NCBI GenBank assembly: GCA_030066045.1
Contig: JASJCJ010000108.1
Location: 1 to 22,978 of the forward strand
Direction: 5' to 3'
DNA: 22,978 nucleotides
From: Calothrix sp. MO_167.B12
GTDB lineage: Bacteria; Cyanobacteriota; Cyanobacteriia; Cyanobacteriales; Nostocaceae
Shown here: in pieces, positions 1,294-19,715 of the stretch
Layout of the letters: each line of letters begins with the position of its first letter
Numbering within the stretch: the first letter of the stretch is position 1
The notes under the pieces: model-generated
The model's database searches: none
Seen by the model: the letters and a program-made list of their open reading frames with translations, nothing else
Told to the model about the DNA's origin: nothing
Made by a program: the position numbers and the translations under genes

Positions 1294-1328
1294 AGAGCTA
1301 AGTGAAATAAAAAATTGGGTGAGGATGG

Positions 1329-2318
1329 TTATTTACGTTTACTAATCAGAGTACGAGAGAGTAAACTCGTAAACAAAACTAAACAAAGTAAAACTATGGC
1401 AGCAGTCCAAACTAATGCTGTTTTTTCTGGGGATGGTTCATTGTAAAGATTGAAAATTAATACGGACATAGATGCAGTAGGACTTAATAATCCATCTGAC
1501 CAATTCAAGCTAAATAGAGCCGTAAAAATTAGTGGTGCTGTTTCTCCAGCAGCGCGAGCGATCGCTAGTAAAATACCTGTAGTAATTCCTGGTAATGCCG
1601 CAGTTAAGACAATACAAAATGTGGTTTGTAATCGGGTACCACCTAAAGAAGCAGATGCCAAACGTAGGGAATTAGGAATTAGTTTTAAAGCTTCTTCTGT
1701 TGCCAGCACAATTACAGGTAACATAATTACAGCTAAAGCACAGCCACCTGCAAAAGCACTAAATTGTTTAAAGGTGATTACAATAATACCATAAACAAAA
1801 ATACCCACTACAATTGACGGCACACCAGTCAAAATAGTGTTAATAAAACGAACAAATTTGGCAATGTGAGAACCTTGACTAAACTCCGCTAAAAATATTC
1901 CCGTCATTACCCCCACAGGAATACTAATAGCTGAAGCGATCGCTACCATTTTGATAGTACCTAAAATTGCATTGGCAAAGCCATCATCAATGACTGGTAA
2001 CCAAAACATTTCTAGTTTAATTCCAGATAATCCTCTAGTTAAAATTTCCCACACTATTGACAGTAATGGGACTAATGCTACTAGGGATAAAATAAAAGCG
2101 ATCGCGGTCATACTATAATTAAATATTAACCGCTTTCCTTCCAAAGGTTGAAATAATTCTATTGCCGAATCTTCAGATTTATTTCCCGGATTATATTTAC
2201 CATGTTTGGTCATATTTGAACGAGATGCATTATTTTTACTTTTAGCTGGGTATTTTTCTTTTGAATAGCTATAATCAAATGTTATGAATGCTCTATCTTC
2301 ATGATTGTTGTTTGCCAC
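1329..2318 (-). CDS. pstA: Phosphate ABC transporter permease PstA, with a roughly 65-aa hydrophilic N-terminal extension
   Basis: Polytopic membrane protein with an EAA-type permease loop ([14 protein letters not shown]). It sits between pstC and pstB and overlaps the pstC stop by 20 nt, which is typical of translational coupling. Confidence 0.9.
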
Positions 2319-3273
2319 GAAGTAACTGTATAATTAGCACTGCACCAATATTTACTGCCAGGGTTAAAGCAAACAAAATTAGCCCTAAATAAGTTAAAGA
2401 ACCAATGTGTAATGTACTATCTGCTTCTGGAAATTCATTAGCTAATACTGCTGGAATTGAATAGCCTGCTTCGAGTAAGGAAATACTAATCACAGAAGAG
2501 TTACCAATTACCATTGTTACAGCCATAGTTTCCCCTAAAGCTCTACCTAGAGCCAGCATTGCTGCACTCAAAATACCGGAAGCCCCAGCAGGAATAAGAA
2601 CTTTAAAAATAGCTTCCCAACGTGTAGAGCCTAAAGCCATAGAGCCAGTTCTTAATTCTTGAGGAATTACTAACAATACATCACGACTAATTGCGGCCAT
2701 GGTTGGCAAAATCATAATTGCTAAAACTATCCCTGCAACTAACATACTCTGACCAAAAGGTTCAGTACTAAATAAAGGGATGAATTGCAAATGTTGAAAT
2801 AGCCATACTTGTAAAGGATTGAGCCACGGAATTAGAATATAAATTCCCCACAAACCAATAATTACACTGGGAATAGCAGCAATTAGTTCCACTAACAAAG
2901 CAATAGGCGATCTCACCCATCTTGGTAAAAAATCTTCCGTAGTGACTAAAGCTACTGCTAAACCAATTGGTACTGCCAATATTAAAGCGAGGGTACTACT
3001 TACTAAGGTTCCATAGATATAGGGCAAAGCACCAAAAATATCACCAGAAACATCCCATTCTTGACTCCACAAAAACCCCAAACCAAACTTAGCGATTGAT
3101 GGATAAGCTTGTTGAAAAATGACCCAACTCATCCAAAACAGGACGGCTACAGTCAATAAAGCAAAACCATGAACTAACCAATTGAATCCTGTTTCTAGAA
3201 GGAAATTTATTCCCTTGGTATCAGTGATATCAATATTTCCAGAATTTACAACTTGTCTCGATGGATTTGTCAT
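2299..3273 (-). CDS. pstC: Phosphate ABC transporter permease PstC
   Basis: Polytopic membrane protein with a permease loop (ALGRALGETMAVTMV). Position is downstream of pstS and upstream of pstA. Confidence 0.9.
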   Translation of the reverse strand: MTNPSRQVVNSGNIDITDTKGINFLLETGFNWLVHGFALLTVAVLFWMSWVIFQQAYPSIAKFGLGFLWSQEWDVSGDIFGALPYIYGTLVSSTLALILAVPIGLAVALVTTEDFLPRWVRSPIALLVELIAAIPSVIIGLWGIYILIPWLNPLQVWLFQHLQFIPLFSTEPFGQSMLVAGIVLAIMILPTMAAISRDVLLVIPQELRTGSMALGSTRWEAIFKVLIPAGASGILSAAMLALGRALGETMAVTMVIGNSSVISISLLEAGYSIPAVLANEFPEADSTLHIGSLTYLGLILFALTLAVNIGAVLIIQLLRGKQQS

Positions 3274-3274
3274 T

Positions 3275-3309
3275 TCAGTTATCAGTTATCAGCTATCAGT
3301 TATCAGTTT
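3275..3309. repeat. Heptamer short tandem repeat, (TCAGTTA)x5 with two variant units
   Basis: Read directly: tcagtta tcagtta tcagcta tcagtta tcagttt. It starts 2 nt from the pstC start codon (3271-3273). Confidence 0.9.
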
Positions 3310-3481
3310 CCCCATCCATAAATCAAGACAGAATTAAGAATACAGTTGGGGGAAAATTTTTAAATTCTCAATTCTAATTTGGGGGCTTAATACCGATTAC
3401 TGTTTAGTCATATACAAATCTGTGTTAACTATGGAAAAAAGTAGGATAGGCAAAAGCTATCCCACCGGGCGAGGAGAATAA

Positions 3482-3590
3482 CACATATCTTGCACCTTCT
3501 CAGTAATGGTAAGGTGGGCAATGCCCACCCTACGATAAAATAAGGTTTTCAGACTTTGATTTGATCAATAATCTTGTGGTGCAAGATGTG
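3482..3590. mobile_element. 109-bp MITE-like element, copy 1 of a 4-member family in this window
   Basis: Terminal inverted repeats CACATATCTTGCACC ... GGTGCAAGATGTG and an internal palindrome GGTGGGCAATGCCCACC. Near-identical 109-bp copies lie at 5132-5240 and 16632-16740. This copy is in the pstS-pstC intergenic spacer. Confidence 0.8.
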
Positions 3591-3613
3591 AAATAACGAA
3601 ATTTATAAATTAA

Positions 3614-4654
3614 TTACTTGACATTGCTTTTAACTGTCTGTATTACCTGACTCGCCACGCTACTAGGAATCCTAGTGTAGTTAAGCTGACCATTATAATT
3701 TTGACCTTTGGTCAGAACCCACTCCACCCATTTTTTCACCGCTTGGGCTTTAGCTGGACTGGAGTATTGTTTGTAAACTAACATCCAAGTTAGACCGACA
3801 ATGGGGTATCCTTGTGTCGAATCCCCGACAAAAACTCGGTAGTTACTGGGGAAACTGACGCTGGATAAAGCCTGATTGGCAGCCTGTAAAGAAGGAGCTA
3901 CAAATTGTCCTGATTTGTTCTGTACTTGGGCTGATTTGAGATTATTAACTGCGGCATATTCGTAGTTAACATAACCAATAGAACCAGGAGTGCGTTTCAC
4001 CAAAGCCGCTACACCTGCATTTCCTTTACCCTTAAGACTCTTTGTTAGCCATTTTGGTTTTTTACTAGTACCAATTCTGCCTTTAAAGTAGGGATTGATA
4101 ACACTCAAATGATTAGTAAAAATGAAGCTAGTACCGCTACCATCAGCACGCACTACGGTTTTAATTGCTGCATTGGGTAGATTGACCCCAGGATTATCTT
4201 TTTTAATTTTTGGGTCGTTCCATTTAGTAATTTGACCGGAAAAAATCCCTGGTAATGTGGTACGAGATAGTTTGAGATTACTTACACCAGGGAGATTATA
4301 AACCACGGAAACAGCACCTCCCGCAGTCGGAACAAGAATTACACCTCCCCTGACCTTAGCCATCTCTGCATCAGTCATTGCCGCATCACTAGCACCAAAA
4401 TCCACAGTACCAGCAATAGTTTGTCTGATGCCACCACTGCTACCAATCCCTTGATAATTAATTTTCAAGTTTGGATGCGTTTTTCTCACTTCCTGAGCAT
4501 ATTTTACATACAGTGGTTGAGGGAAAGTTGCTCCTGCACCATTTACGGTTTGCCCTTGGGCAATTGATGTAAATAAGGGTAAAAAGGCAATAGATGTTGT
4601 TATTGCTGAAGTCGTAAAGGCGCGATTCATAATGGTGAAAAAAGCCATATTCAC
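3614..4654 (-). CDS. pstS: Phosphate ABC transporter substrate-binding protein PstS
   Basis: N-terminal signal-like hydrophobic segment followed by the PstS-type motifs GAGATFPQPLY, GIGSSGGI and DGSGTSFIFT. It is the first gene of the pst operon. Confidence 0.9.
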   Translation of the reverse strand: MNMAFFTIMNRAFTTSAITTSIAFLPLFTSIAQGQTVNGAGATFPQPLYVKYAQEVRKTHPNLKINYQGIGSSGGIRQTIAGTVDFGASDAAMTDAEMAKVRGGVILVPTAGGAVSVVYNLPGVSNLKLSRTTLPGIFSGQITKWNDPKIKKDNPGVNLPNAAIKTVVRADGSGTSFIFTNHLSVINPYFKGRIGTSKKPKWLTKSLKGKGNAGVAALVKRTPGSIGYVNYEYAAVNNLKSAQVQNKSGQFVAPSLQAANQALSSVSFPSNYRVFVGDSTQGYPIVGLTWMLVYKQYSSPAKAQAVKKWVEWVLTKGQNYNGQLNYTRIPSSVASQVIQTVKSNVK

Positions 4655-7172: not shown

Positions 7173-8990
7173 ATGAAACTGCTGCATGAGAAGCTACAAC
7201 AATCTAATGCAGTGGCAATTTCTGCTATTGCTGGTATGGGGGGAGTAGGTAAGACGGAATTAGCAACCCAGTATGCAAGACAACATGAAGCTGATTATCC
7301 AGGGGGGATTTGCTGGTTAAATGCCAGAGATACTAATCTGGCAGCAGAGATTATCCAGTTTTATCAGTTTTATGTGGATAATCAAGGAGAAATTCCCCAA
7401 CAGATAGGAGAAAGACAGCTCACGGTATCTGAACAAGCTATCTGGTGTTGGGACAATTGGCAACCTGAGGAAGGATTGATATTAGTTGTTTGGGATGATG
7501 TCACGGATTTAGGCAGTTGTCAGCAACTACTACCAACAAATAACCGTTTTCGTCTGCTGATTACTACCAGACTACGCAATCTCGATCCCAATATTGTGGA
7601 AGAGATACCCTTAGATATATTGTCCCCCGAGAAATCTTTAGAACTACTGGTAGTGTTGGTAGGGAAAAAGCGAGTAGAGAAGGAAAGAGAAACAGCAGCA
7701 GAATTATGTAAGTGGTTGGGATACCTGCCATTGGGGTTAGAATTAGTCGGGCGATATCTAGCAGATGACCCGGATTTATCATTGTCAGAAATGTTAGCAA
7801 GTCTGGAACAACAGCGATTGAATGATGAAGCACTAGAATATTCATCGGAGAGTTGGACTACAGCACAGCGAGGGGTTAAAGCTGCATTTGAATTAAGTTG
7901 GCAGAAGCTAGATGCCATGACACAAGGGGTGGCGGAGTTATTAAGTTTGTTTGCTCCAGATGTAATTCCTTGGGGTTTGGTTACATCTATCTGTCAGAGA
8001 TTGGATGGGAATAAAGCTGATATTAACAAAGCCAAAAAACAACTATATAAGCATTATTTAATACAGCGATTAGAAGATAGAGAAAGTAGTTATAAAATTC
8101 ATCCTCTAATCCGCCAATTCCTACAAGCAAAGTTAGAGTTAACACCATCAGCCGATGAGTTGAAGCAGGCTTTCGCTGCGGCAATGGTAGCGGTTGAAAA
8201 AAGAATTCCTGAAAATCCTGTCATGACAGAGATTGAATCGGTTAAAGATGCTATACCCCATCTGATAGAGGTAGCAGAACATCTGATAGCAGTGGTGATT
8301 GATGAAGATTTATATTGGGTGTTTGAGGGGTTAAGCAGATTTTATGAAGGACAAGGATTATATGCATTGGCAGAGCCTTGGCGTAAGCAGTGCGTATCAG
8401 TGCTACAAACTCGCTTGAAAGAAGAAAATCCCTATATCGCTACCAGTTACAACAATCTGGCAGGACTCTACTCAGACCAAGGACGTTACACAGAAGCCGA
8501 ACCTCTGTATCAAAAAGCTTTATCACTAAGGCAACAGTTCCTAGGAGAGAAACATCCCGATGTTGCCACATCTTACAATTGTCTGGCAGGACTCTACTCT
8601 GAACAAGGACGGTACAGCGAAGCCGAACTCCTGTATCAAAAAGCTTTATCACTCAGGCAACGGTTCCTGGGAGAAGAACATCCTGATATTGCCACATCTT
8701 ACAACTGTCTGGCTTTTCTCTATTATTCCCAAGGACGATACACAGAAGCAGAACCTCTGTATCAAAAAGCTTTATCACTCAGGCAACAGTTCCTGGGAGA
8801 AGAACATCCTGATGTCGCTACCAGTTACAACAATCTGGCTCTTCTCTACTACTCCCAAGGACGGTATAGTGAAGTGGAACCCCTGTATCAAAAAGCATTG
8901 ATGATTTTTGAGCAACGGTTAGGGACAGAACACCCTAATACTGTTACTGTTCGCAATAATCTGGAATTTCTTCGTAGCAATATGGACTGA
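7173..8990 (+). CDS. STAND NTPase with an NB-ARC domain and C-terminal TPR repeats
   Basis: P-loop GMGGVGKTELA, Walker B LILVVWDDV and GLPLA-like GYLPLGLELVG, followed by four 42-aa TPR-pair units (ATSYNNLAGLY..GRY.EAEPLYQKAL). The conserved pre-P-loop motif FVGREKE lies upstream of the first ATG, in frame. Confidence 0.9.
   Translation: MKLLHEKLQQSNAVAISAIAGMGGVGKTELATQYARQHEADYPGGICWLNARDTNLAAEIIQFYQFYVDNQGEIPQQIGERQLTVSEQAIWCWDNWQPEEGLILVVWDDVTDLGSCQQLLPTNNRFRLLITTRLRNLDPNIVEEIPLDILSPEKSLELLVVLVGKKRVEKERETAAELCKWLGYLPLGLELVGRYLADDPDLSLSEMLASLEQQRLNDEALEYSSESWTTAQRGVKAAFELSWQKLDAMTQGVAELLSLFAPDVIPWGLVTSICQRLDGNKADINKAKKQLYKHYLIQRLEDRESSYKIHPLIRQFLQAKLELTPSADELKQAFAAAMVAVEKRIPENPVMTEIESVKDAIPHLIEVAEHLIAVVIDEDLYWVFEGLSRFYEGQGLYALAEPWRKQCVSVLQTRLKEENPYIATSYNNLAGLYSDQGRYTEAEPLYQKALSLRQQFLGEKHPDVATSYNCLAGLYSEQGRYSEAELLYQKALSLRQRFLGEEHPDIATSYNCLAFLYYSQGRYTEAEPLYQKALSLRQQFLGEEHPDVATSYNNLALLYYSQGRYSEVEPLYQKALMIFEQRLGTEHPNTVTVRNNLEFLRSNMD
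8439..8942 (+). repeat. Four tandem 126-bp (42-codon) repeats encoding the TPR array
   Basis: Units at 8439-8564, 8565-8690, 8691-8816 and 8817-8942. The first three are near-identical at DNA level and the fourth is more diverged. They generate the spurious out-of-frame ORFs 8390-8602, 8440-8652 and 8560-8901. Confidence 0.9.
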
Positions 8991-9013
8991 TTATCCCTTT
9001 GAAATCACTCTCG

Positions 9014-9184
9014 CTAGGGCGTGTTTTCAAAGTCGCCGTCACCCTAGAAGGGTGCGGCTACACGTACAAAGTCCGCCTACGCGGACTACGAAAAATTAGG
9101 GTTTTTAGCCTGCGTAGGCAGGCTTTGATCGTGTAGCCCCAGGCTTTAGCCTGAGGGTTTTAGGGGTTTGAAAACATACCCTAG
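9014..9184. mobile_element. 171-bp MITE-like element between convergent genes
   Basis: Imperfect TIRs CTAGGGCGTGTTTTCAAA ... TTTGAAAACATACCCTAG. Internal hairpins: gtccgcctacgcggac, agcctgcgtaggcaggct and ccaggctttagcctgagg. Confidence 0.65.
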
Positions 9185-9223
9185 GCGTAGTTTGGGTTGG
9201 GGCTTGACTAACCAGCCGCCACA

Positions 9224-11380
9224 CTAGGGACTCAAAAAATACAAATGATCATCTTCTAAACAGCGTAATTCTTCCGGGGTACCTGTTCGCTTCACCTGAC
9301 CATCTTCCAATAATACAACCCAGTCAGCACGATTATTTACCTGGGGACGATGACTAATTAATATCGTAGTTTTACCGAGACGATTGTGTAATAATTGATT
9401 TAAAAATTCCGCTTCACTTGCTGGATCTAATCCTGCCGTAGACTCATCTAAAATCAAAATGGGTGGATCATTGATAATAGCACGAGCGATCGCTAGTCTT
9501 TGCTTTTGTCCTCCAGAAAGGTTAGCACCAAATTCTCCCAAAACTGTTTGATACTGTTCTGGTAGTCGTTCTATAAATTCATCGGCTTGGGTAACTTGGC
9601 AAGTTTCCATAACCTCTTCTAAGCTGACATCATACCCCAAGCTAAAGTTTTCCATAATCGAACGGCTCCAAAAGTGCGCTTCTTGGGGTACGAGAACAAT
9701 TTGTTGACGCAAACAATCCAGAGGTATTTGCGAATGTTCCTCATCTCCAAAATATATATTTCCATGTTCCAGAGGATACAAACCGGCAATTAATTTTGCT
9801 AGGGTACTTTTACCACAACCAGACCTACCTACCAAAGCGGTAACTTTACCTCCAGGGATGATGAGGGAGAAATCTTGCAGTAAGTGTTCTCTACCAGGAT
9901 AATGAAAGTCTAATCCATCGCAGATTATATCAGTGCGTTGCCTAATGGTAGGATATTGATTTGGTTGTTGCTGCTGATTTTCCGGGGGAAATGTTAATAC
10001 CTCCTGTAATCGAGATAAAGCTGTTTTGGTACTGGCGAATTCATCCACAAAATCAATCACAGTATCCAGTAAACTCACTATATTATTATTCAAGCTGACA
10101 AAAGCTATTAATTGACCAATGGTTAATTCTTGACTAAAAACTAAACCACTACCAATCCACAACAAGCCTACTCCACCAATATCAGAAACTAAACCGGAGA
10201 ATTGTTTGTTAATAATTTCAATGTGAATCGTTGTTAATGCTAATTTGGTAATTCTGGTGAATCTACTTTGTAATTCTTGCCAGAAATAAGGTGCGGCGGT
10301 AATTGTTTTCATAGTTAATGCACCCTTAAATGTCTCTACTAGTACTCCCTGGGTTTCAGCCTCTAGAACCATCAGTTCGCGGGTTTTCTGTTGCAGTTTG
10401 GGAATGAAAACAACTGTAGATAAGGTCATTAACCCAGCAATAAATATAGCAACTATGGTTAACTTCCAGCTATAAAATAACATTAATACTAAACAAACCA
10501 GTGCAATCAATAACCGAATGGGTAAATTGATAATAGCTTGGGAAATTAACTTATTAATTTCTTCAATATCTGTCAGACGGCTAACTATTTCCCCACTCTG
10601 CCGAGATTCATAGTAACTTAGGGGTAAGTGTAAAATTTGTCGCCCAAACTCGAACATCAAATTTAACTGAAAGTGCTGGGCAAAATGAGCAATGAGAACA
10701 TTCTCAACTAACCCTAAACCACGGGTAAAAATATACATTGCTACCACTGCTAACACTACCCCACTGAGAAAGTCTTTATCTCCTCTAACTAAGACATCAT
10801 CAGTGAGAATTTGCAGGAAAAAAGGATAAATTAAGGATAAAGCACCAATGACAAAGGCACATAACAAACCTTCTAGTAATATACCTTGGTAATTTAAGAT
10901 ATATTGCCAAAATTTCTCCCAAGAGTTCCACCCACTACCAGAATGAGACTGACTTGATTGTACAAGCGATCGCTGTTTATTTGGTTTGAGTAATAATAAA
11001 ACTCCATCTTCCCAACTATCAACTAAATCCTCGTAAGAAATATACCTAATACCTACAGCCGGATCGCCAATTACATATTTTTTACCACGTTTTCCATATA
11101 AAACTACCCAGTGACAGCCTTGCCAGTGGATAATTGCTGGTAGTAGCTTATCTGTCAAATGGGGAATTGCATTCGGTGCCACTTTCCCTGATTCAGCATG
11201 AAAACCTAAAGCCTCAGTTCCTTGTCGTAAACCTAATAATGTAGTACCTTTTTTCCCTGTATTTATTGCTTCTCGAATGTGGTTAATGGCAAAATTATGT
11301 CCATAATATTTAGCAATAGAAGCAACACAAGCAGCTCCACAGTCCTCCTCACTTGACTGTTTCACTAATTTATATTTCAT
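9224..11380 (-). CDS. Peptidase C39 domain-containing ABC transporter (double-glycine peptide processing and export, bacteriocin-exporter/HetC-like class)
   Basis: The N-terminal C39 domain has an intact Gln8, Cys14 (EEDCGAACV), His90 (GCHWVVL) and Asp106 (IGDPA). A six-helix membrane domain follows. The C-terminal NBD has Walker A GRSGCGKST, signature LSGGQKQR, Walker B ILILDE and H-loop SHR. Confidence 0.95.
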   Translation of the reverse strand: MKYKLVKQSSEEDCGAACVASIAKYYGHNFAINHIREAINTGKKGTTLLGLRQGTEALGFHAESGKVAPNAIPHLTDKLLPAIIHWQGCHWVVLYGKRGKKYVIGDPAVGIRYISYEDLVDSWEDGVLLLLKPNKQRSLVQSSQSHSGSGWNSWEKFWQYILNYQGILLEGLLCAFVIGALSLIYPFFLQILTDDVLVRGDKDFLSGVVLAVVAMYIFTRGLGLVENVLIAHFAQHFQLNLMFEFGRQILHLPLSYYESRQSGEIVSRLTDIEEINKLISQAIINLPIRLLIALVCLVLMLFYSWKLTIVAIFIAGLMTLSTVVFIPKLQQKTRELMVLEAETQGVLVETFKGALTMKTITAAPYFWQELQSRFTRITKLALTTIHIEIINKQFSGLVSDIGGVGLLWIGSGLVFSQELTIGQLIAFVSLNNNIVSLLDTVIDFVDEFASTKTALSRLQEVLTFPPENQQQQPNQYPTIRQRTDIICDGLDFHYPGREHLLQDFSLIIPGGKVTALVGRSGCGKSTLAKLIAGLYPLEHGNIYFGDEEHSQIPLDCLRQQIVLVPQEAHFWSRSIMENFSLGYDVSLEEVMETCQVTQADEFIERLPEQYQTVLGEFGANLSGGQKQRLAIARAIINDPPILILDESTAGLDPASEAEFLNQLLHNRLGKTTILISHRPQVNNRADWVVLLEDGQVKRTGTPEELRCLEDDHLYFLSP

Positions 11381-11571
11381 TATCAGTGTAAATCCTTTTC
11401 GATAGCAAAACTAATTGTTCAAGTGCAATAGAATCGAAAAAATAGGGCTGTTAACACCGATAATTTATCAATGTTAAAAACCCTAAATCAAATTCAAACA
11501 ATCCAAATTAGCTCGTGGTTATAAAGATTGAGATATATGGGAAATTGAAAAGCTGATCTAGTAGTCCTTTC

Positions 11572-11599
11572 AAAATCCAAAATCTAAAATCCAAAATGG
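11572..11599. repeat. Heptamer short tandem repeat (AAAATCC/AAAATCT)x4
   Basis: Read directly: aaaatcc aaaatct aaaatcc aaaatgg. The complementary GGATTTT motif also occurs at about 15543-15558 and 22511-22524. Confidence 0.85.
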
Positions 11600-11655
11600 T
11601 ATAACCACTAATGCTTAAATTGATAATCTATAAAGTTATCAACTTAGTCTAATCA

Positions 11656-11841
11656 TTAATAACCATAGTGACCACGACGACAGCCATATCCGTATCTACG
11701 ACCATAGCCATATCTATATCTACGACCATAGCCATATCTATATCTACGACCATAGCCATAACCATGACCACCTGCGATCGCAGATTCTTCTTCTGCTGAT
11801 AATTTTGTCAAAATGTTTTCTTCAGTATGAAATTCAACCAT
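11656..11841 (-). CDS. Double-glycine-leader secreted peptide precursor: 61 aa, made of a 25-aa leader and a 36-aa Gly/Tyr/Arg repeat core
   Basis: Sequence is MVEFHTEENILTKLSAEEESAIAGG|HGYGYGRRYRYGYGRRYRYGYGRRYGYGCRRGHYGY. The leader matches the class-II/ComC-type pattern: Leu at -15 and -12, Glu at -8, Ile at -4, Gly-Gly at -2/-1. A consensus SD (AAGGAG) lies 8 nt upstream of this ATG. The gene is directly upstream of, and co-oriented with, the C39 ABC exporter. The track ORF starts 16 codons earlier (11889), where I see no SD. Confidence 0.8.
   Translation of the reverse strand: MVEFHTEENILTKLSAEEESAIAGGHGYGYGRRYRYGYGRRYRYGYGRRYGYGCRRGHYGY
11674..11769 (-). repeat. 24-nt tandem repeat (octad GYGRRYRY) inside the precursor core
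   Basis: Two perfect 24-mers acgaccatagccatatctatatct lie at 11698-11721 and 11722-11745. They are flanked by a copy with 4 mismatches (11674-11697) and a partial copy starting at 11746. Confidence 0.9.
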
Positions 11842-11849
11842 TTTGTCCG

Positions 11850-11855
11850 CTCCTT
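11850..11855 (-). promoter_or_regulatory. Shine-Dalgarno sequence of the precursor gene
   Basis: The minus strand reads TAATAAAGGAGCGGACAAAATG, giving AAGGAG with an 8-nt spacer to the ATG at 11841. Confidence 0.7.
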
Positions 11856-12510
11856 TATTAATTATATACAGCTTGTTTGTCAATTCCATAATTCACAAGC
11901 TAACCGTATATTTATTAGATATTTTCTTCGCTAATTTATCAACCGTAAATAATTAAAACTCATGTTTTAGCAATAACATTGTTTGCTTGTTTACATATTA
12001 TTTAAATACCATAATTCAGTGTTGATGCTATTTGTTAATATACCCTGATATTATTAATTTGACATCCAGAATATAGTATTAAGTCCAATTAAAATAATAT
12101 GGCTCGTAAATCACGGTTGATGCCGAATAATTGAGAATTTGGCTGCATAGCCCATATATAGAACCATGAAAACTATAGTTTATAAGGGATATAGACTTGT
12201 TTGATTTATTCAATTCCAGTGGCTATTCTATTTTATATCTGTGGCATAATGGAAAATATAATTACTACACAACAGAAATAAAATTAGGACATAATACTAG
12301 CTGTAATATAATTAACTTCACACATAAATAATCAGTTGGCATATCTAAATATATTTTAAAAAACCTGAAAATTAGTATTGCCACTTAAAGATATTTGGCA
12401 AACAATTAAAGATATATAATAAGTGCAGTGTACACCATTTTACCTGTCTATGAATGTGTAGTATTGACGATATATTTCGGATGACTCATATGAGCTGGTT
12501 ATAATTGCCA

Positions 12511-13824
12511 ATGCCAATTCAAAAAAACCATGAAGAATTATTACCCAAAGTCAGTAATTGGGCGAAATTAGGAGGATTAATTTTGCTGGGGGCTGGTGGG
12601 ATTACCGTCTTACTTGCTGCTACCATTAAATATCCCATAGCTGTGAAAACAACAGCAATTATTCGCCCTATTGGGGAAATTAAAATTGTTGAAGCTGGAG
12701 CCTCAGGAGTAATTAGTCATATTTTCGTCCAGGAGAATCAAAGAGTTACTCAGGGAACAAAACTTGCTCAGATTGAAAACTCTCAACTTGACGGTAAAAA
12801 AAATCAAATTAATCTCAACATTCAACAGCACAAATTACAACTTACTCAGTTAAATTCTCAACTCAAGGAATTAAATGCTCAAATAGCGGCTGAAACTACT
12901 GGAATCAAGGGAGCAATCGCATCTGCACGAGCACAGTTAAGTCGGACTCAACGGGAATACCAAGACAAGCAGATTGTCACCCAAGCTGAAATTCAATCAG
13001 CCTCAGCAGCTTTAGAATTAGCAAAAGAAGAAGTGAAGCGGTATCAACAGTTAAGCAAAACTGGGGCTGTTTCTTCCCTACAATTTAAAGAGAAAGAAAA
13101 AGCCTTCAAAGCTGCCCAAGCTAAATTACAACGTGCCCAAGTTGGTATTAATCCTAACACCGCTAATTTAGCGATCGCGCAACAAAATATTATCCAAAAA
13201 CAAGCTCAAGGGGAATCAACCCTAGCAAGTTTAAGGAAAGAGCGGCAAAGCCTACAGCAGCGACTGATAGCAATGACTAATCAACTCAGCCGCTACCACC
13301 AGGAACTCAAACAAGTCGAGCAAGACTTGCAAAAAACTATTATTCGCGCACCACAGGGAGGGACTATCCTCAAACTGAAATTGAGAAATCCCGGACAAGT
13401 AGTTAATCCTGGAAATGCGATCGCTCAAATTGCTCCCCAAGACGCAGATTTAGTTGTCAAAGCCAAAATCCCCGTGGCCGACATTCGTAAAGTTAATATC
13501 TGTCAAGCAGAACTGGTAAAAAATTGTCAGGTTGGCAAAGTAAAAATGCGTATATCTGCGTATCCTTACACAGACTACGGGATTCTCAAAGGAGCCGTCA
13601 GAGCCATTACACCGGATGCAATAGTGCCATCAACAGAGGAGAATAATCCAGTCACAGGCTCTTATTATGAGGTGACTATTGAGCCAGAAAAACCCTATCT
13701 CCAGAAAAAAAGTAAGCGTTACCCCCTAAAAGCAGGTATGGAGGCCAAAGCAGAAATATTTGCCAAAAAAGAGACTTTGTTAATACTTCTTCTTAGAAAA
13801 ACCAGGTTAGGAACTAACCTGTAG
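12511..13824 (+). CDS. HlyD-family secretion protein (periplasmic adaptor/membrane-fusion protein)
   Basis: It has one N-terminal TM helix (LGGLILLGAGGITVLLAA), a lipoyl-like segment (VISHIFVQENQRVTQGTKLAQIE), a long coiled coil rich in Q/L/A, and a C-terminal beta-domain. It is divergent from the precursor/exporter pair. The track begins at a TTG two codons earlier (12505); ATG 12511 is preferred. Confidence 0.9.
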   Translation: MPIQKNHEELLPKVSNWAKLGGLILLGAGGITVLLAATIKYPIAVKTTAIIRPIGEIKIVEAGASGVISHIFVQENQRVTQGTKLAQIENSQLDGKKNQINLNIQQHKLQLTQLNSQLKELNAQIAAETTGIKGAIASARAQLSRTQREYQDKQIVTQAEIQSASAALELAKEEVKRYQQLSKTGAVSSLQFKEKEKAFKAAQAKLQRAQVGINPNTANLAIAQQNIIQKQAQGESTLASLRKERQSLQQRLIAMTNQLSRYHQELKQVEQDLQKTIIRAPQGGTILKLKLRNPGQVVNPGNAIAQIAPQDADLVVKAKIPVADIRKVNICQAELVKNCQVGKVKMRISAYPYTDYGILKGAVRAITPDAIVPSTEENNPVTGSYYEVTIEPEKPYLQKKSKRYPLKAGMEAKAEIFAKKETLLILLLRKTRLGTNL

Positions 13825-13860
13825 AGGGTACTTAAGCTAAAAACCTTTGAAAATCTCGTT

Positions 13861-13968
13861 TCCAGCCAGAGGGTGGAAATGCGTATTCGGAGGCTCCGGC
13901 TCCTTTGATGATAAATTGAGGCGGAGCCTCGTAATTTATGCTCCCACCCAGAGCATGGGAGCGAGGAA
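13861..13968. repeat. Dispersed GC-rich hairpin repeat cluster
   Basis: Palindrome gaggcggagcctc and a 7-bp stem gctccca/tgggagc. It shares the ggcggagcctc motif with 4924-4936 and lies between the convergent HlyD and 162-aa genes. Confidence 0.65.
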
Positions 13969-13980
13969 TAACTTCTTTTA

Positions 13981-14469
13981 TCAATTCGCTAATTTCCGTT
14001 GCATTATTTGTCTGGCGATTTCATAATCTTCATTAGTCAAATAACAAAAATGATAATAACTCGCTAAATAAAAATTGCAGTTAACTTTTTGATAACAGTC
14101 AGCTACAGCCAAAAAACCATATCTTGCACCCCATTCATCTGTAAACCAATCTTTGTAAAAAGAATCGTGTAAATATAGCGTTAGCGTATTTTCATCTGCA
14201 CTGGGAATTAGACGAATTAATTCAATATCAGGATGATGGGAACGGCTAACTGGTAAAAGAACATCAAAGCCCTGAAAATTGATAAACTCTGCTAGATCAT
14301 CTTCAGTCTTCTGATAATATGAGGGCGGTTCTTCTGGTAAAGCAATAAAATGTCCCCAATTCATCCAAAATTCATGCTTGGCATCAAATCCAGGGTCAAT
14401 ATCTAATCTCCACTTATCTTCTTGAGAAAGGTCATCAATCACTTCTTTTGGTAACTCTGCTAACTTCAT
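13981..14469 (-). CDS. Hypothetical acidic cytoplasmic protein (162 aa)
   Basis: Uninterrupted ORF with no signal peptide or TM segment. Asp+Glu clearly outnumber Lys+Arg. I recognise no motif. Confidence 0.6.
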   Translation of the reverse strand: MKLAELPKEVIDDLSQEDKWRLDIDPGFDAKHEFWMNWGHFIALPEEPPSYYQKTEDDLAEFINFQGFDVLLPVSRSHHPDIELIRLIPSADENTLTLYLHDSFYKDWFTDEWGARYGFLAVADCYQKVNCNFYLASYYHFCYLTNEDYEIARQIMQRKLAN

Positions 14470-17240: not shown

Positions 17241-19715
17241 ATGGGTACTGTTACTCTTAGATTAAAGCATATACTTTTTCTGACTTCAGCAGTTGTTATG
17301 CTTCCTGACACAGTTTTTAGCCAGGATAATCAAAAAGCATCAATTGGAGAATTTAGCAAATCAGAATCATCATCAAATCCCTATTCAGTTAATACACCTG
17401 ACTCTATATCTGTCTCCATTCCCGAGCCGGAATCTTTTCAGGATTTATCAGAGTTGGGAGGTTATTCCCAGAATCAGAAGACTTTATTAGTTCAGCAGAC
17501 AAGAGTAACGGACTTAGGCTCTGAGAATAGCGATAAACAGCCTTGTACTCCCGTAAATATTGGAGATGTAGAGTTTCCGAAGCTGGTAGATTTAACCTCT
17601 AATAAAATTAATCAAAAACCTTGTGTTCCCACTAATATCGGACAACCAGAATTTTCTAGTAGAAGTTTACACAAACAAACTGGAGTTGCAGAACTAGAGA
17701 AACAGCAAATATCCACAAAGTCTGATGATTCCAGAAATTTTCCTTTGGTGGCGAAACTAGATAAAAAACCAGCAGTTATAAAAGATAAAGAAAAACCCTC
17801 AGGCGATCCAAAATATATCGATCCACCCCATATAGTTCCAAATAAAAAAGTACATCCTTTGACAACACAATTAATACTTAATGACCAAGTTATTAATCAT
17901 TTAACAACAGGTGAGATTTTTGGTGCTGTTAGTTTTGGTGATGATCGTAATACTAATTTTAATGTTAATGGAATTCTGAAGATAGATGGTGAAATTGAAA
18001 AAAGTGTGAGCAGGGAAAATATCCTTCTGAGGAAGCAAACAGGTCGTTATATACAGTTGCAAACAGTAAATAGAAATAGGAAAGTGGAAGTTAGTACTAA
18101 ACAACCACAAACTTTGACAGGTATAGATGTTCAGTTAAGTTTGATTGCTTCCTGTATTGAAGATCCAGATAACCTCTGTACTTTTACTCCTAGTATTTTT
18201 ACTGATGAAAATTTTTTCGACCCTGCATCTCTACAACCAACATCCTTTTTGCAGCCTTCTAAATTTGGTGAGATAGTAACTCCAGAATCATTTGCTGCTA
18301 TCCAAGAACCTGGTTTCCAATCTGGAGCTGAAGGACAAGAAATTGGTGTAAATTTATCTTTTCCTAATACTGGTTCTTCATTTGGAAATACTCAATCTGA
18401 TAGAGCTTTTGTAACTAGGGAAGAAACTATTAAAAATACACCTACGGCATTTTATTCTACAGTGAGACAGGTTTTTAAAGCCAATGATAGAAAAGCTGTC
18501 GTTGGTCGTACAGTACGTGGTTTTGGATTTATATTAAATGATGACAACTTTTTACTGAACTCTGGCTTACAACTTGCTCATATTTTTTTACCTAATGCTG
18601 AGCCTCAGATTAAACCTGGGGTAAAGCCTGCTAATAGAAATATTAATCGTAATTTATTTTTTGCTGTTAACAATGTGCGTCAACCAATCAATAGTAAAGT
18701 CATTTATCATGCTGGTCTTGGATCAGCAAAAACTCCAACACAAAAGGTTAAAAATAGTAATCAAATTCCTGCTGCTAGATTTAACAGTATCTGGTTTGGC
18801 CTTTCTCCAATCAAAAAAATTAAGCTTTCTGGTAAATCTCGTTATGAAATTATAGGTGATCCTCGAATTATCGCTGCAGGTGGTTCAGAAGGTGCAGCCG
18901 AATTTGACAATAATGTAATCTCAGTAATAGACGATCAAGTTTTTTCCAATGCCACTCTAGATAATATTTACAACCAAGTTTATGTCACAGGATTGCAACG
19001 AGATGCTAATTTTGTCAGCTCTAGTAGTTTCCAAGAGGTAACAAATTATTATCCACATATTAGTTTTAGCGGCAATATTACCGATAGCCAAGATATTTTT
19101 AGATACTATGGAGGCTTAATTACTTCAGAACAAATCAAAGCATATCTTGGTGTAGATTTTACGAGAAATACACGCAATGCTTGGAGCTATTCATTAGGAG
19201 GAATAGCATATACCAACCCCGATAGAGATTATTATAGTAAAATACAGGGTAGTATTTCCAAAAGAATCAACCTGAGCAAGAATTCTTTACTGTTACTTTC
19301 TACTGGATTTAATTATGCTTTCGATGGTAATACGAAAGTAAATGGTGTAAATATTAGTAATTCTGCTAGTTCAGTTAGGCTAGGGGCAACAGTTAAATTT
19401 GGCTCAGTCTCTCTGGGATTGTTTAATTATTTTGGAGATATATTACCAAATTCCGTTGATAGTTATTTATTAGCTAATGTAGGAATTAGATTTAGTAATA
19501 ATTTTCAAGTATCGGCATATTATAAACCCATTGATGAGAGTCGCAGTACTTCTCGTTATGGAGCTAGTGCCAGTTTAAGATTAGGCAAAATAAAAAATCA
19601 TATTTTTTCAATTTCCTGGGCTAATAATGAATATCAATTTGGAACCGATGCTGAGGGTAATCAATTGGATATAAGTAATAATGCATTTACTATTTTATTC
19701 AAATCAGCTTTTTAG
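17241..19715 (+). CDS. Large secreted protein, putative outer-membrane beta-barrel protein (family not recognised)
   Basis: N-terminal signal-like segment (LKHILFLTSAVVMLPDTVFSQ). The C-terminal third is rich in alternating hydrophobic/polar beta-strand patterns and ends in an aromatic residue (...FTILFKSAF), typical of BAM substrates. Confidence 0.7.
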   Translation: MGTVTLRLKHILFLTSAVVMLPDTVFSQDNQKASIGEFSKSESSSNPYSVNTPDSISVSIPEPESFQDLSELGGYSQNQKTLLVQQTRVTDLGSENSDKQPCTPVNIGDVEFPKLVDLTSNKINQKPCVPTNIGQPEFSSRSLHKQTGVAELEKQQISTKSDDSRNFPLVAKLDKKPAVIKDKEKPSGDPKYIDPPHIVPNKKVHPLTTQLILNDQVINHLTTGEIFGAVSFGDDRNTNFNVNGILKIDGEIEKSVSRENILLRKQTGRYIQLQTVNRNRKVEVSTKQPQTLTGIDVQLSLIASCIEDPDNLCTFTPSIFTDENFFDPASLQPTSFLQPSKFGEIVTPESFAAIQEPGFQSGAEGQEIGVNLSFPNTGSSFGNTQSDRAFVTREETIKNTPTAFYSTVRQVFKANDRKAVVGRTVRGFGFILNDDNFLLNSGLQLAHIFLPNAEPQIKPGVKPANRNINRNLFFAVNNVRQPINSKVIYHAGLGSAKTPTQKVKNSNQIPAARFNSIWFGLSPIKKIKLSGKSRYEIIGDPRIIAAGGSEGAAEFDNNVISVIDDQVFSNATLDNIYNQVYVTGLQRDANFVSSSSFQEVTNYYPHISFSGNITDSQDIFRYYGGLITSEQIKAYLGVDFTRNTRNAWSYSLGGIAYTNPDRDYYSKIQGSISKRINLSKNSLLLLSTGFNYAFDGNTKVNGVNISNSASSVRLGATVKFGSVSLGLFNYFGDILPNSVDSYLLANVGIRFSNNFQVSAYYKPIDESRSTSRYGASASLRLGKIKNHIFSISWANNEYQFGTDAEGNQLDISNNAFTILFKSAF

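What the first reader, a model, noticed from the sequence alone, without database searches (positions are those of the whole stretch)
9224..13824. Self-contained export locus for a double-glycine-leader peptide whose core is almost pure Gly/Tyr/Arg repeat
Three adjacent genes form a coherent module. The first is a 61-aa precursor (11656-11841, -) with a ComC/class-II-bacteriocin-type leader, ...LTKLSAEEESAIAGG. The second, directly downstream, is an ABC exporter whose N-terminal C39 peptidase keeps the full Gln/Cys/His/Asp catalytic set. The third is a divergent HlyD adaptor. Cleavage after Gly-Gly would release HGYGYGRRYRYGYGRRYRYGYGRRYGYGCRRGHYGY, which has 11 Gly, 12 Tyr, 10 Arg, 2 His and 1 Cys, and no aliphatic or acidic residue. 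C39-ABC/HlyD clusters with GG-leader precursors are known to be common in cyanobacteria. HetC of Anabaena belongs to the same exporter class. I do not recognise this cargo as any described bacteriocin, RiPP or PatS/HetN-type morphogen family. The locus sits at the centre of the window.
Basis: partly seen in the sequence, partly recalled or inferred. Interest (0 to 1): 0.88.

Follow-up and report, generated by a model that had tools for sequence, protein, structure and literature searches.

The report
Secreted Gly-Tyr-Arg peptide export module
A marine Calothrix cyanobacterium carries a three-gene cassette that trims and pumps out a tiny, very positively charged peptide made almost only of glycine, tyrosine and arginine; the pump is a well-known type, but the cargo belongs to an undescribed peptide family (with relatives in Trichodesmium and Okeania), and it is untested whether it acts as a glue-like matrix component or as an antimicrobial.

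Summary
The window comes from a Calothrix sp. MO_167.B12 metagenome-assembled genome. It carries a 61-aa precursor (11656-11841, -) with a conserved ribosome-binding site, an acidic 25-aa double-glycine leader and a 36-aa core (12 Tyr, 11 Gly, 10 Arg, 2 His, 1 Cys).

Downstream lies a short-type C39-peptidase ABC exporter with Gln8/Cys14/His90/Asp106. A HlyD adaptor is transcribed divergently. The same three-gene module recurs in at least 10 independent contigs.

About 16 precursors share the leader. Their cores come in three flavours: Gly/Tyr/Arg, Gly/Tyr/His and Gly/Arg/Trp/His. Across 506 core residues there are no aliphatic residues at all.

A sister family of at least 44 peptides, with 3-6 tandem precursors in each complete locus, sits in the same module in Trichodesmium, Okeania and Microcoleaceae.

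No modification enzyme and no immunity gene is conserved with the module. A conserved intrinsic terminator separates the precursor from the exporter gene.

The machinery is ordinary: Wang et al. group III, the same group as the EbfG/PteB biofilm cluster. The cargo has no Pfam or NCBIfam family and did not turn up in my literature searches.

Cleavage and export are well supported. The role outside the cell is inferred: an adhesive or matrix polycation (about 0.4) or an antimicrobial (about 0.35).

The parts
11656..11841 (-). Precursor gene, 61 aa including the stop codon. Leader = 11767-11841 (25 aa, net charge about -6). Core = 11659-11766 (36 aa, net +10).
   Evidence: 100% identical to the NCBI hypothetical protein QNJ51_18340 of Calothrix sp. 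MO_167.B12
11850..11856 (-). Shine-Dalgarno sequence AAAGGAG, 8 nt upstream of the ATG
   Evidence: Conserved in 10 of 11 homologous genes
11674..11760 (-). 24-bp tandem repeat, 3.6 copies at 93% identity, encoding the GYGRRYRY units of the core
11869..11902 (-). Hairpin or palindrome AGCTTGT-N17-ACAAGCT upstream of the ribosome-binding site (5' UTR stem or operator)
   Evidence: Conserved in 8 loci. One pair changes A-U to G-C in two loci. dG -9.6 kcal/mol, z-score -3.1. Modest evidence.
12037..12065 (-). Candidate promoter ATGTCA-17-TATATT for the precursor (weak lead only)
   Evidence: Consensus match inside an invariant block. The scan as a whole found no more sites than shuffled sequence.
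11618..11644 (-). AT-rich hairpin starting 12 nt after the precursor stop codon
   Evidence: Conserved in 7 loci. dG -9.6 kcal/mol, z-score -4.7.
11437..11484 (-). Intrinsic terminator (19-bp stem followed by UAUUUUUU) between the precursor and the exporter gene, 56 nt upstream of the exporter ATG
   Evidence: dG -21.5 kcal/mol, z-score -5.8. The stem is kept through compensatory changes in L020.
9224..11380 (-). Peptidase-containing ABC exporter (short type, 718 aa). C39 domain = 10976-11380, transmembrane domain = 10085-10876, ATPase domain = 9434-9880.
   Evidence: Pfam. Full-length match to PCAT1 4RY2, E = 6e-102. Catalytic Q8/C14/H90/D106. Walker A GRSGCGKST, signature LSGGQ and Walker B ILILDE read directly in the translation.
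12505..13824 (+). HlyD-family membrane-fusion adaptor, transcribed divergently. Probable start at ATG 12511.
   Evidence: Pfam HlyD_3 2.5e-15 and TIGR01843 5e-45, below cut-off. Adjacent and divergent in all complete homologous loci.

Best explanation
The locus is a leader-guided secretion cassette.

Steps shown by sequence and homology. The 61-aa precursor is translated from its own short transcript. A conserved terminator before the exporter gene should keep the precursor in large excess over the pump. The acidic leader (net about -6) carries the ...LSxEEExxIxGG recognition element. The cytoplasmic C39 domain (Gln8/Cys14/His90/Asp106) cuts after Gly25. The ABC dimer, the HlyD adaptor and an unlinked TolC-like channel then pass the 36-aa core across both membranes.

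Steps inferred.
- The leader also masks the +10 core inside the cell.
- The core is released essentially unmodified as a disordered polycation of Tyr and Arg 'stickers' separated by Gly spacers.
- The single Cys forms a disulfide dimer outside the cell.
- Function depends on composition, not on sequence.

Favoured extracellular role. The peptide binds and cross-links polyanionic material through charge and cation-pi contacts. That material would be the cell's own sheath or exopolysaccharide and the surfaces it sits on. The peptide would then be a cement or matrix component, a bacterial counterpart of the Gly/Tyr-basic and His-rich glue proteins of marine invertebrates. It would also parallel the EbfG/PteB biofilm system.

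Confidence in processing and export is about 0.9. Confidence in the cement/matrix role is about 0.4.
For: Export and processing.
- Domain architecture and catalytic residues.
- Invariant GG at positions 24-25, Ile at -4, and LS at -12/-11 in 11-14 sequences.
- Module synteny in at least 10 contigs and in the sister family.
- Conserved terminator.

Composition rather than sequence is under selection.
- 16 cores totalling 506 residues contain no A, I, L, M, N, Q, T or V and only one Ser. Yet 54% of one-step mutational neighbours of the window's core codons fall outside the residue set seen in the Gly/Tyr/Arg-type cores.
- Core lengths range from 27 to 45 aa through repeat gain and loss.
- Against L001, the core differs at about 9% of aligned positions by my manual alignment. 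The exporter differs at 2%.

No dedicated partner genes.
- No immunity gene. The precursor-to-exporter spacers are only 149-200 bp in several loci and hold no conserved ORF.
- No modification enzyme, and the flanks differ.

Stable, vertically inherited trait.
- Adaptor-side synteny is kept across genera.
- The exporter is 55% identical between Calothrix and Trichodesmium, and the cargo stays Tyr/Arg-rich.
- The GC content of the module is not an outlier.

Other points.
- 10 of 11 Gly/Tyr/Arg-type cores have exactly one Cys, at several non-homologous positions.
- A basic Gly/Tyr/Arg gene and a His/Tyr gene sit in tandem in L012. This mirrors the basic Gly/Tyr-rich Sa-1 and His-rich Sa-2 tubeworm cement proteins (PMC12817120).
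- Cyanobacterial precedent: EbfG1-4, double-glycine peptides exported by PteB, are needed for biofilm formation and lie in the same cluster group III (PMC4997328).
- AlphaFold2 gives no confident structure for the core.
Against: - There is no direct evidence for any extracellular role: no expression data, no peptide detection and no phenotype.
- At 27-45 aa the peptides are small for structural proteins and typical for antimicrobial peptides.
- All three core flavours also match known eukaryotic antimicrobial compositions: Gly/Tyr NLPs, Gly/His shepherins and Arg/Trp peptides.
- No tyrosinase or other cross-linking enzyme is linked.
- The resemblance to glue proteins is compositional only.
- Position -7 of the leader is Glu, not the usual Leu/Ile, so cleavage efficiency is untested.
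- All Calothrix-type loci come from closely related genomes (exporter 88-98% identical), so the counts of 'independent' loci overstate the independence.
Confidence: 0.4

Rival explanations
1. Antimicrobial or allelopathic peptide. The exported polycation is a class-II-microcin-like weapon that disrupts the envelopes of competing bacteria, fungi or grazers. The producer would be protected by the exporter itself or by an intrinsically low-charge cyanobacterial envelope, so it would need no immunity gene.
For: - The locus type is the canonical bacteriocin/microcin export arrangement.
- The core carries net +7 to +10 over 27-36 residues with 33% aromatic residues.
- The Gly/Arg/Trp/His variant P0006 resembles Arg/Trp antimicrobial peptides.
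- Gly/Tyr NLPs and Gly/His shepherins are proven antimicrobials (PMC2453101, PMC4695807).
- The core diverges faster than the exporter, as expected in an arms race.
- Microcins can serve both roles (MccAB1, PMC13188072).
Against: - No immunity ORF is conserved in any locus.
- The Gly/Tyr/His cores are uncharged (net -2 to 0).
- From general knowledge: known class II microcins are anionic or hydrophobic rather than polycationic, and cationic antimicrobial peptides are usually weakened at seawater ionic strength.
- The Tyr/Arg-rich character of the cargo persists across two cyanobacterial orders, with conserved synteny. Toxin cargo usually turns over between genera.
Confidence: 0.35
2. Precursor of a modified peptide (RiPP) whose tailoring enzymes are encoded elsewhere. 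Candidate modifications are Tyr hydroxylation to DOPA, Tyr O-sulfation, Tyr-Tyr or Arg-Tyr cross-links, and Arg hydroxylation. This would add to either extracellular role rather than exclude it.
For: - In cyanobacteria, prochlorosin precursors are modified by a stand-alone enzyme and exported by unlinked clusters (Wang 2011).
- Two Trichodesmium sister loci have a TPR + Sulfotransfer_2 protein directly after the exporter.
- From my own knowledge: the Xanthomonas RaxX/RaxST/RaxAB system couples a Tyr sulfotransferase to a peptidase-ABC exporter and adaptor.
Against: - No enzyme gene is conserved next to the module in any Calothrix-type locus or in the Microcoleaceae locus.
- The short 25-aa leader gives no NCBIfam match, including to the NHLP and Nif11 leader models.
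Confidence: 0.15
3. Signalling or morphogen peptide: a quorum pheromone, or a PatS/HetN-like pattern signal exported in the manner proposed for HetC.
For: Double-glycine leaders also export pheromones such as ComC. HetC-type exporters act in heterocyst differentiation. The hosts are heterocystous or filamentous.
Against: - The cores keep their composition but not their sequence or length. A receptor-read signal needs a defined sequence.
- There is no RGSGR motif.
- No sensor kinase or regulator is conserved alongside.
- The exporter is the short type with an adaptor, unlike HetC.
- The sister family occurs in Oscillatoriales genera such as Trichodesmium and Okeania, which from general knowledge do not form heterocysts.
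Confidence: 0.04
4. Binder of extracellular metals, minerals or nutrients. The His/Tyr cores would chelate Fe, Cu or Zn. The Arg/Tyr cores would bind phosphate, silica or dust particles.
For: - The Gly/Tyr/His cores are 30% His and 34% Tyr.
- The hosts include Trichodesmium and the diatom-associated Calothrix rhizosoleniae SC01. From my own knowledge, Trichodesmium colonies collect dust and SC01 lives attached to silica-walled diatoms.
Against: This is purely compositional. No receptor or uptake genes are conserved alongside. The neighbouring pst operon in the window is not conserved in other loci.
Confidence: 0.05
5. Not a real gene. The repeat would be non-coding, or the true gene would be the antisense Thr/Ile-rich ORF (11668-11799, +).
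For: An antisense ORF of 43-79 aa is open in every locus. The DNA is a tandem repeat.
Against: - The sense frame has a conserved ribosome-binding site and ATG, a conserved leader with invariant GG, synonymous changes, and co-orientation with the matching C39 exporter.
- The antisense ORFs have inconsistent starts (GTG, ATG or TTG) and end inside the leader. They follow automatically from GGT/TAT/CGT codons, whose reverse complements contain no stop codon.
- Restriction of the core to so few residue types makes sense only in the sense frame.
Confidence: 0.01

Closest known systems
Group III 'bacteriocin' gene clusters of cyanobacteria (Wang, Fewer & Sivonen 2011, PMC3140520), including ebfG1-4/pteB of Synechococcus elongatus PCC 7942 (PMC4997328)
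   Same: HlyD adaptor + short-type C39-ABC exporter + one or more small double-glycine precursors, with no tailoring enzyme. EbfG peptides need the catalytic Cys of PteB for secretion and enable biofilm formation.
   Different: The EbfG mature parts are 6-7 kDa and have no reported homologues in other cyanobacteria. Here the cores are 3-5 kDa, consist almost only of Gly/Tyr/Arg (or His, or Trp), and are polycationic. I could not test orthology of the exporter to PteB because its sequence was not at hand.
Class II microcin and class II bacteriocin export systems (CvaAB-TolC/MccV; ComAB/ComC; PCAT1/CtA; LahT)
   Same: Double-glycine leader cut by an N-terminal C39 domain during ABC export. There is a full-length match to PCAT1 (E = 6e-102) and to ComA, and the catalytic Gln/Cys/His/Asp align. 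An adaptor gene is adjacent.
   Different: There is no immunity gene. From general knowledge, microcin cargo is anionic or hydrophobic and Gly/Ala/Ser-rich, whereas this cargo is polycationic and free of aliphatic residues. Leader position -7 is Glu instead of Leu/Ile. The exporter scores below the cut-offs of TIGR01193 and TIGR03796.
HetC of Nostoc PCC 7120
   Same: A cyanobacterial peptidase-containing ABC exporter with an active Cys/His peptidase.
   Different: HetC is the long type with an extra N-terminal domain. It has no adjacent adaptor gene and no adjacent double-glycine substrate, and its substrate is unknown.
Nif11/NHLP-leader precursors (prochlorosins and relatives)
   Same: The C-terminal leader motif ...LS-EE(E)---[IV]AGG resembles the LSxEELExVAGG end of those leaders (from my own knowledge). 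The export logic is the same.
   Different: The leader is only 25 aa and matches no NCBIfam model, including those for the NHLP and Nif11 leaders. No LanM or other enzyme is nearby.
Eukaryotic low-complexity antimicrobial peptides: C. elegans NLP-29/31 and caenacins (Gly/Tyr), shepherins (Gly/His)
   Same: Composition classes match the Gly/Tyr and Gly/His cores here.
   Different: There is no homology. Those peptides are not Arg-rich to this degree and are made by signal-peptide secretion in animals and plants.
Marine invertebrate glue proteins: tubeworm cement Sa-1/Pc-1 (basic, Gly/Tyr-rich) with Sa-2 (His-rich); mussel foot protein 3
   Same: Small, basic, Gly/Tyr-rich proteins occur together with a His-rich partner (PMC12817120). 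This parallels the Gly/Tyr/Arg and His/Tyr genes in tandem in L012. From my own knowledge, mfp-3 is about 45 aa and rich in Gly, Tyr/DOPA and Arg.
   Different: There is no homology. The animal proteins rely on DOPA made by tyrosinases, and no such enzyme is linked here. Adhesion by the cyanobacterial peptides is untested.

Membership tests
Peptidase-containing ABC transporter (PCAT/AMS) | N-terminal C39 domain with the catalytic Cys and His, plus the Gln oxyanion residue and Asp | tested here: met
   Q8, C14, H90 and D106 align with ComA Q11/C17/H96/D112 and with the PCAT1 peptidase domain. Pfam PF03412, 1.6e-33.
Peptidase-containing ABC transporter (PCAT/AMS) | Type-I exporter transmembrane domain plus an ATPase domain with Walker A, signature and Walker B motifs | tested here: met
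   PF00664 7.6e-37 and PF00005 6.8e-32. GRSGCGKST, LSGGQ and ILILDE read in the translation. Full-length alignment to PCAT1.
Peptidase-containing ABC transporter (PCAT/AMS) | A cognate double-glycine substrate encoded next to it | tested here: met
   A precursor lies directly upstream in every locus.
Gram-negative tripartite peptide exporter (type-I-like) | A membrane-fusion (HlyD) partner | tested here: met
   ORF 12505-13824 matches HlyD_3 and TIGR01843 (below cut-off). Its position is conserved.
Gram-negative tripartite peptide exporter (type-I-like) | A TolC-type outer-membrane channel | not testable with these tools
   None of the window ORFs of 90 aa or more that I scanned with Pfam matches such a channel. 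It is expected to be unlinked, and the whole genome was not available.
Double-glycine leader peptides | Gly-Gly (or Gly-Ala) at -2/-1, hydrophobic residues at -4, -7, -12 and -15, and Glu at -8 | tested here: inconclusive
   G-2/G-1 are invariant. I-4, L-12, S-11 and E-8 are invariant or nearly so, and L/F/I sits at -15. Position -7 is an invariant Glu, not Leu/Ile. AlphaFold2 predicts a helix at residues 16-23. Cleavage was not tested.
Class II microcin / bacteriocin | A dedicated immunity gene beside the structural gene | tested here: not met
   No conserved ORF lies between or beside the module genes. The spacers are as short as 149-200 bp.
Class II microcin / bacteriocin | Antibacterial activity of the mature peptide | not testable with these tools
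   Needs synthetic peptide assays.
Cyanobacterial group III cluster (Wang 2011) | HlyD + short-type C39-ABC (no CAP_ED extension) + precursor(s), with no LanM, SurA or S8 peptidase | tested here: met
   The 718-aa exporter starts with the C39 domain at residue 2. The neighbours carry none of those domains. Definition taken.
NHLP / Nif11 precursor families and their TIGR03796 exporter | A match of the precursor to the leader-domain models, and of the exporter to TIGR03796 above its cut-off | tested here: not met
   The precursor has 0 NCBIfam hits. The exporter scores 417 bits against a cut-off of 853.
HetC-type exporter | Long form with an extra N-terminal domain, and no adjacent adaptor or substrate | tested here: not met
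   This is the short form, with both the adaptor and the substrate adjacent.
PatS/HetN morphogens | The RGSGR pentapeptide | tested here: not met
   It is absent from all 16 cores (listing).
RiPP (post-translationally modified peptide) | A tailoring enzyme that acts on the core | tested here: inconclusive
   None is conserved in cis. A sulfotransferase-domain neighbour occurs only in Trichodesmium sister loci. Enzymes acting in trans cannot be excluded.

The most novel reading that the evidence does not exclude
Marine filamentous cyanobacteria secrete a dedicated set of 'sticker-and-spacer' peptides through a bacteriocin-type pump. The hosts are Calothrix, including the diatom-associated C. 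rhizosoleniae SC01, and through the sister family Trichodesmium and Okeania. The set comprises polycationic Gly/Tyr/Arg peptides, His/Tyr peptides and Arg/Trp peptides. These would coacervate with anionic exopolysaccharide and cement sheaths, colonies and attachment to host silica or mineral particles. That would be a convergent bacterial version of mussel and sandcastle-worm glues, possibly hardened through Tyr or Cys chemistry.
Probability: 0.25. Interest if true: 0.85.

Novelty: new variant of a known kind. Interest (0 to 1): 0.6.

Why it matters
The export machinery is textbook. The cargo, however, is a peptide class I could not find described anywhere.

What defines the class:
- Ribosomal, leader-exported, aliphatic-free cores selected for composition: Tyr with Arg, His or Trp, and Gly.
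- Conservation, together with its pump, across two orders of marine filamentous cyanobacteria. These include the globally important nitrogen fixer Trichodesmium and a diatom symbiont.

If the peptides are matrix or adhesive components, they would give a molecular handle on sheath cohesion, colony formation and epibiont attachment. They would also offer genetically simple 30-aa underwater adhesives. If they are antimicrobials, they would be the first polycationic Gly/Tyr/Arg 'microcins', and they would work in seawater.

Either way the prediction is cheap to test: a 30-36-aa synthetic peptide and one cultured strain (C. rhizosoleniae SC01).

Tried and rejected
1. The 660-bp adaptor/precursor intergenic region first looked unusually conserved. 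Comparison with third-codon positions of the exporter gene showed about the same identity (0.79-0.88 against 0.75-0.93). I withdrew that claim. Only the hairpins with compensatory changes are kept.
2. The promoter consensus scan found no more sites than shuffled sequence (10 against 9.1). The promoter listed under parts is only a lead.
3. An Rfam search of 9000-14000 gave nothing above threshold.
4. The upstream ATG (77-aa reading) was rejected, because homologues start at Met-Val/Ile with a conserved ribosome-binding site.
5. The antisense Thr/Ile-rich ORF was rejected as a by-product of the codon set.
6. AlphaFold2 on the precursor gave pLDDT 51, with only a short leader helix. It is uninformative for the core, so I ran no fold search.
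7. Literature searches with core and leader k-mers found nothing relevant, and a keyword search found nothing. Table S3 of Wang 2011 lists no sequences, so earlier sightings there cannot be excluded.
8. The Pfam KRTAP hit (E = 0.025, below cut-off) is compositional only.
9. I searched the window for a second precursor with a leader regex and a scan for Gly/Tyr/Arg/His runs. Only the one gene was found.
10. I checked sulfotransferase linkage. It is present in two Trichodesmium loci but absent in the Microcoleaceae and all Calothrix-type loci, so it is not a defining part of the module.
11. GC content does not mark the module as an island.

Full report
**1. The observation**

On the minus strand, 11841-11656 reads MVEFHTEENILTKLSAEEESAIAGG followed by HGYGYGRRYRYGYGRRYRYGYGRRYGYGCRRGHYGY and a stop codon. 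The core has 12 Tyr, 11 Gly, 10 Arg, 2 His and 1 Cys.

The open frame reaches an upstream ATG (77 aa). The 61-aa start is the real one. AAAGGAG lies 8 nt before ATG 11841, and both the ribosome-binding site and the Met-Val/Ile start recur in 11 homologous genes.

The core is encoded by a 24-bp tandem repeat, 3.6 copies at 93% identity. The protein is 100% identical to a 'hypothetical protein' of the metagenome-assembled genome Calothrix sp. MO_167.B12.

**2. The exporter and adaptor**

The 718-aa product of 9224-11380(-) has Peptidase_C39 (residues 2-135), ABC_membrane and ABC_tran domains. It aligns end to end with PCAT1 (4RY2, E = 6e-102) and with ComA.

Residue-level alignment to the ComA peptidase domain (3K8U) and to PCAT1 places Gln8, Cys14, His90 and Asp106 on the catalytic Gln11/Cys17/His96/Asp112. 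Walker A (GRSGCGKST), the signature (LSGGQ) and Walker B (ILILDE) are intact.

It scores below the NCBIfam cut-offs of the named equivalogs. For example, TIGR03796 gives 417 bits against a cut-off of 853. It is therefore a peptidase-containing ABC transporter but not a member of those curated subfamilies.

The divergent ORF 12505-13824(+) is a HlyD-family adaptor, and homologues are called from the ATG that corresponds to 12511. None of the window ORFs of 90 aa or more that I scanned with Pfam matches a TolC-type channel. 'Self-contained' is therefore slightly too strong.

**3. A family, not a singleton**

I ran word-indexed and exhaustive HMM searches of billions of proteins and scans of genome and metagenome contigs. 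These gave about 16 distinct precursors with the leader M-[VI]-x-R-Q-T-E-E-N-[ILF]-L-x-K-L-S-x-E-E-E-S-x-I-[VAS]-G-G.

Named sources are Calothrix MO_167.B12, MO_192.B10 and MO_167.B42, Calothrix rhizosoleniae SC01 and a Nostocaceae MAG. Among GTDB species representatives, only two carry it.

Every contig long enough shows the same order: adaptor (divergent), then precursor(s), then C39-ABC exporter. The genes beyond the module differ. There are NB-ARC/TPR and pst genes here, and toxin-antitoxin, DctP, eCIS or UvrB genes elsewhere. The three-gene module is thus the unit, and no tailoring enzyme travels with it.

**4. The cargo**

The cores fall into three flavours.

| Flavour | Cores | Net charge | Cys | Example |
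|---|---|---|---|---|
| Gly/Tyr/Arg | 11 | +7 to +10 | exactly one in 10 of 11 | the window's core |
| Gly/Tyr/His | 4 | -2 to 0 | none | cores ending YYPYY |
| Gly/Arg/Trp/His | 1 (45 aa) | +9 | none | P0006 |

One locus, L012 (Calothrix MO_167.B42), carries a Gly/Tyr/Arg gene and a Gly/Tyr/His gene in tandem.

Across 506 core residues there is no Ala, Ile, Leu, Met, Asn, Gln, Thr or Val, and only one Ser. Yet 54% of the single-nucleotide non-synonymous neighbours of the window's core codons fall outside the residue set seen in the Gly/Tyr/Arg-type cores.

Sequence and length turn over quickly, from 27 to 45 aa by repeat gain and loss. Against L001, the core differs at about 9% of aligned positions by my manual alignment. 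The exporter differs at 2%. Selection therefore acts on composition rather than on sequence.

AlphaFold2 predicts nothing confident: pLDDT is 51, and the only element is a short leader helix at residues 16-23. This is consistent with a disordered core. The mature peptide has pI 10.3 and a monoisotopic mass of 4540.145 Da. The leader has pI 4.2.

**5. A wider class**

A weak hit (P0016) led to a sister family with the leader MQETxNxxLFxDLSxEESATINGG. Its cores are rich in Tyr, Arg, Ser, Gly and His, and nearly all end in Cys-Tyr. At least 44 proteins belong to it, from Trichodesmium, Okeania and Microcoleaceae.

The complete loci have the same module, with 3-6 tandem precursors. The Trichodesmium exporter is 55% identical to the one in the window.

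Adaptor-side synteny (FHA-kinase, DUF4327) is kept between Microcoleaceae and Trichodesmium. One member lies on more than 60 metagenomic contigs. The pump and its Tyr/Arg-rich cargo are therefore a stable, apparently vertically inherited trait of marine filamentous cyanobacteria. It does not look like a strain-specific island, and the module's GC content is also unremarkable.

**6. Regulation**

A strong hairpin followed by UAUUUUUU lies 56 nt before the exporter start (11437-11484, dG -21.5 kcal/mol, z-score -5.8). It is conserved, with compensatory changes in a more distant locus. This arrangement should give abundant precursor transcript and limited read-through into the pump gene.

An AT-rich hairpin follows 12 nt after the stop codon (11618-11644). 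A palindrome or hairpin, AGCTTGT-N17-ACAAGCT, precedes the ribosome-binding site (11869-11902), and one of its pairs covaries.

My first impression that the whole 660-bp upstream region is unusually conserved did not survive a control. Its identity equals that of third-codon positions in the exporter gene.

**7. How it most likely works**

Shown or strongly implied: the precursor is recognised through its leader, cut after Gly25 by the C39 domain, and exported through the ABC/HlyD pair and an unlinked outer-membrane channel. The one irregularity is Glu at leader position -7, where double-glycine leaders normally have Leu or Ile.

Inferred: the acidic leader neutralises the polycationic core inside the cell, and the single Cys dimerises outside.

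The extracellular role cannot be settled by computation.

In favour of a matrix or adhesive polycation (about 0.4):
- There is no immunity gene in any locus.
- Evolution preserves composition only.
- The cargo character is conserved across orders.
- Basic and His-rich partners occur together, as in tubeworm cement Sa-1/Sa-2.
- The EbfG/PteB biofilm system is a precedent, and Wang et al. place it in the same cluster group III.
- From general knowledge, simple cationic antimicrobial peptides are salt-sensitive, and these hosts are marine.

In favour of an antimicrobial (about 0.35):
- The locus type is the canonical bacteriocin arrangement.
- The peptides are small, with net +7 to +10 and one third aromatic residues.
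- One variant is Arg/Trp-rich.
- Gly/Tyr and Gly/His antimicrobials are proven in eukaryotes.
- Microcins can be both toxin and biofilm scaffold.

Less likely readings:
- A signalling role is unlikely, because a receptor-read peptide would conserve its sequence.
- Modification in trans remains possible. Two Trichodesmium loci have a sulfotransferase-domain neighbour, but none of the Calothrix-type loci does.

**8. Comparison with what is known, and verdict**

The machinery belongs to the peptidase-containing ABC transporters and to Wang et al.'s group III clusters. It is not HetC-like, not an NHLP/Nif11 system, and not a canonical microcin locus, because it lacks an immunity gene.

The cargo has no Pfam or NCBIfam family. 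Its sequences appear in none of the papers I could search.

I rate it a new variant of a known kind: ordinary pump, unprecedented cargo class. Interest is 0.6. It is well above routine because the family is coherent, is under clear selection, extends to ecologically important taxa, and can be tested directly with a 30-36-residue synthetic peptide.

Noticed in passing
window 9014-9184: A nested inverted-repeat element lies between the convergent NB-ARC/TPR gene and the exporter gene. It has 18-nt outer arms (CTAGGGCGTGTTTTCAAA / TTTGAAAACATACCCTAG) around 41-nt inner arms. It gives sub-threshold CRISPR-DR28 matches on both strands (28 and 27 bits against a cut-off of 35). It may be a MITE-like insertion or a bidirectional terminator.
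   Followed up: partly
window 11571-11597 (within 11485-11617): A 7-bp tandem repeat (CAAAATC, 3.9 copies; GGATTTT on the coding strand) sits in a stretch of about 70 nt between the precursor and the terminator. That stretch is absent from the homologous loci, so it is an insertion specific to this genome.
   Followed up: no
L024 10754-13849; L027 13481-16588: In two Trichodesmium sister loci, a protein of about 1030 aa with TPR and Sulfotransfer_2 domains follows the exporter directly. It is absent from the Microcoleaceae and Calothrix-type loci. It may point to Tyr sulfation of the Tyr-rich cargo, as with RaxX/RaxST, or it may be mere synteny.
   Followed up: partly
L024 3891-7338; L022 8606-10686: The sister-family loci carry 4-6 tandem precursors (6 in L024, 4 in L022). 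These fall into recurring subtypes that look orthologous across genera: cores starting YNE...GNLRGYY; HGYYG...RRPVRYYSRRRYY..CY; Y.DC..GYGRxVxYYRRPVSYHYRSY...DCY; and GCGCDGYGYGRSVSYY...GGCY. Several have Cys near both ends. Unlike the Calothrix-type cores, these conserve real sequence motifs.
   Followed up: partly
L015 3620-5326: The HlyD homologue of the Nostocaceae MAG locus (the Gly/Arg/Trp/His cargo) has an N-terminal extension of about 130 aa that includes a long Pro-Leu repeat (LPPLPPLPPLP...). The other adaptors lack it.
   Followed up: no
window 11668-11799 (+), and equivalents in all loci: A Thr/Ile-rich antisense ORF of 43-79 aa is open across every core, because the reverse complements of the GGT/TAT/CGT/AGA codons contain no stop codon. 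Its starts are inconsistent, so I judge it an artefact.
   Followed up: yes
window 496-4654, 7173-8990, 17241-19715: Other genes in the window are a phosphate-type ABC uptake operon (ATPase, two permeases, PBP_like_2 binding protein), an NB-ARC + TPR STAND protein, and an 824-aa ORF with no Pfam match. A similar NB-ARC/TPR gene lies near the exporter in L018, which probably reflects shared ancestry rather than function.
   Followed up: no
L012 6001-6880: Calothrix sp. MO_167.B42 has two precursors in tandem before the exporter: a polycationic Gly/Tyr/Arg type and an uncharged Gly/Tyr/His type ending in YYPYY. P0012 differs from P0007 by one extra GHGHY unit, which shows repeat slippage in the His-type cores too.
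   Followed up: partly
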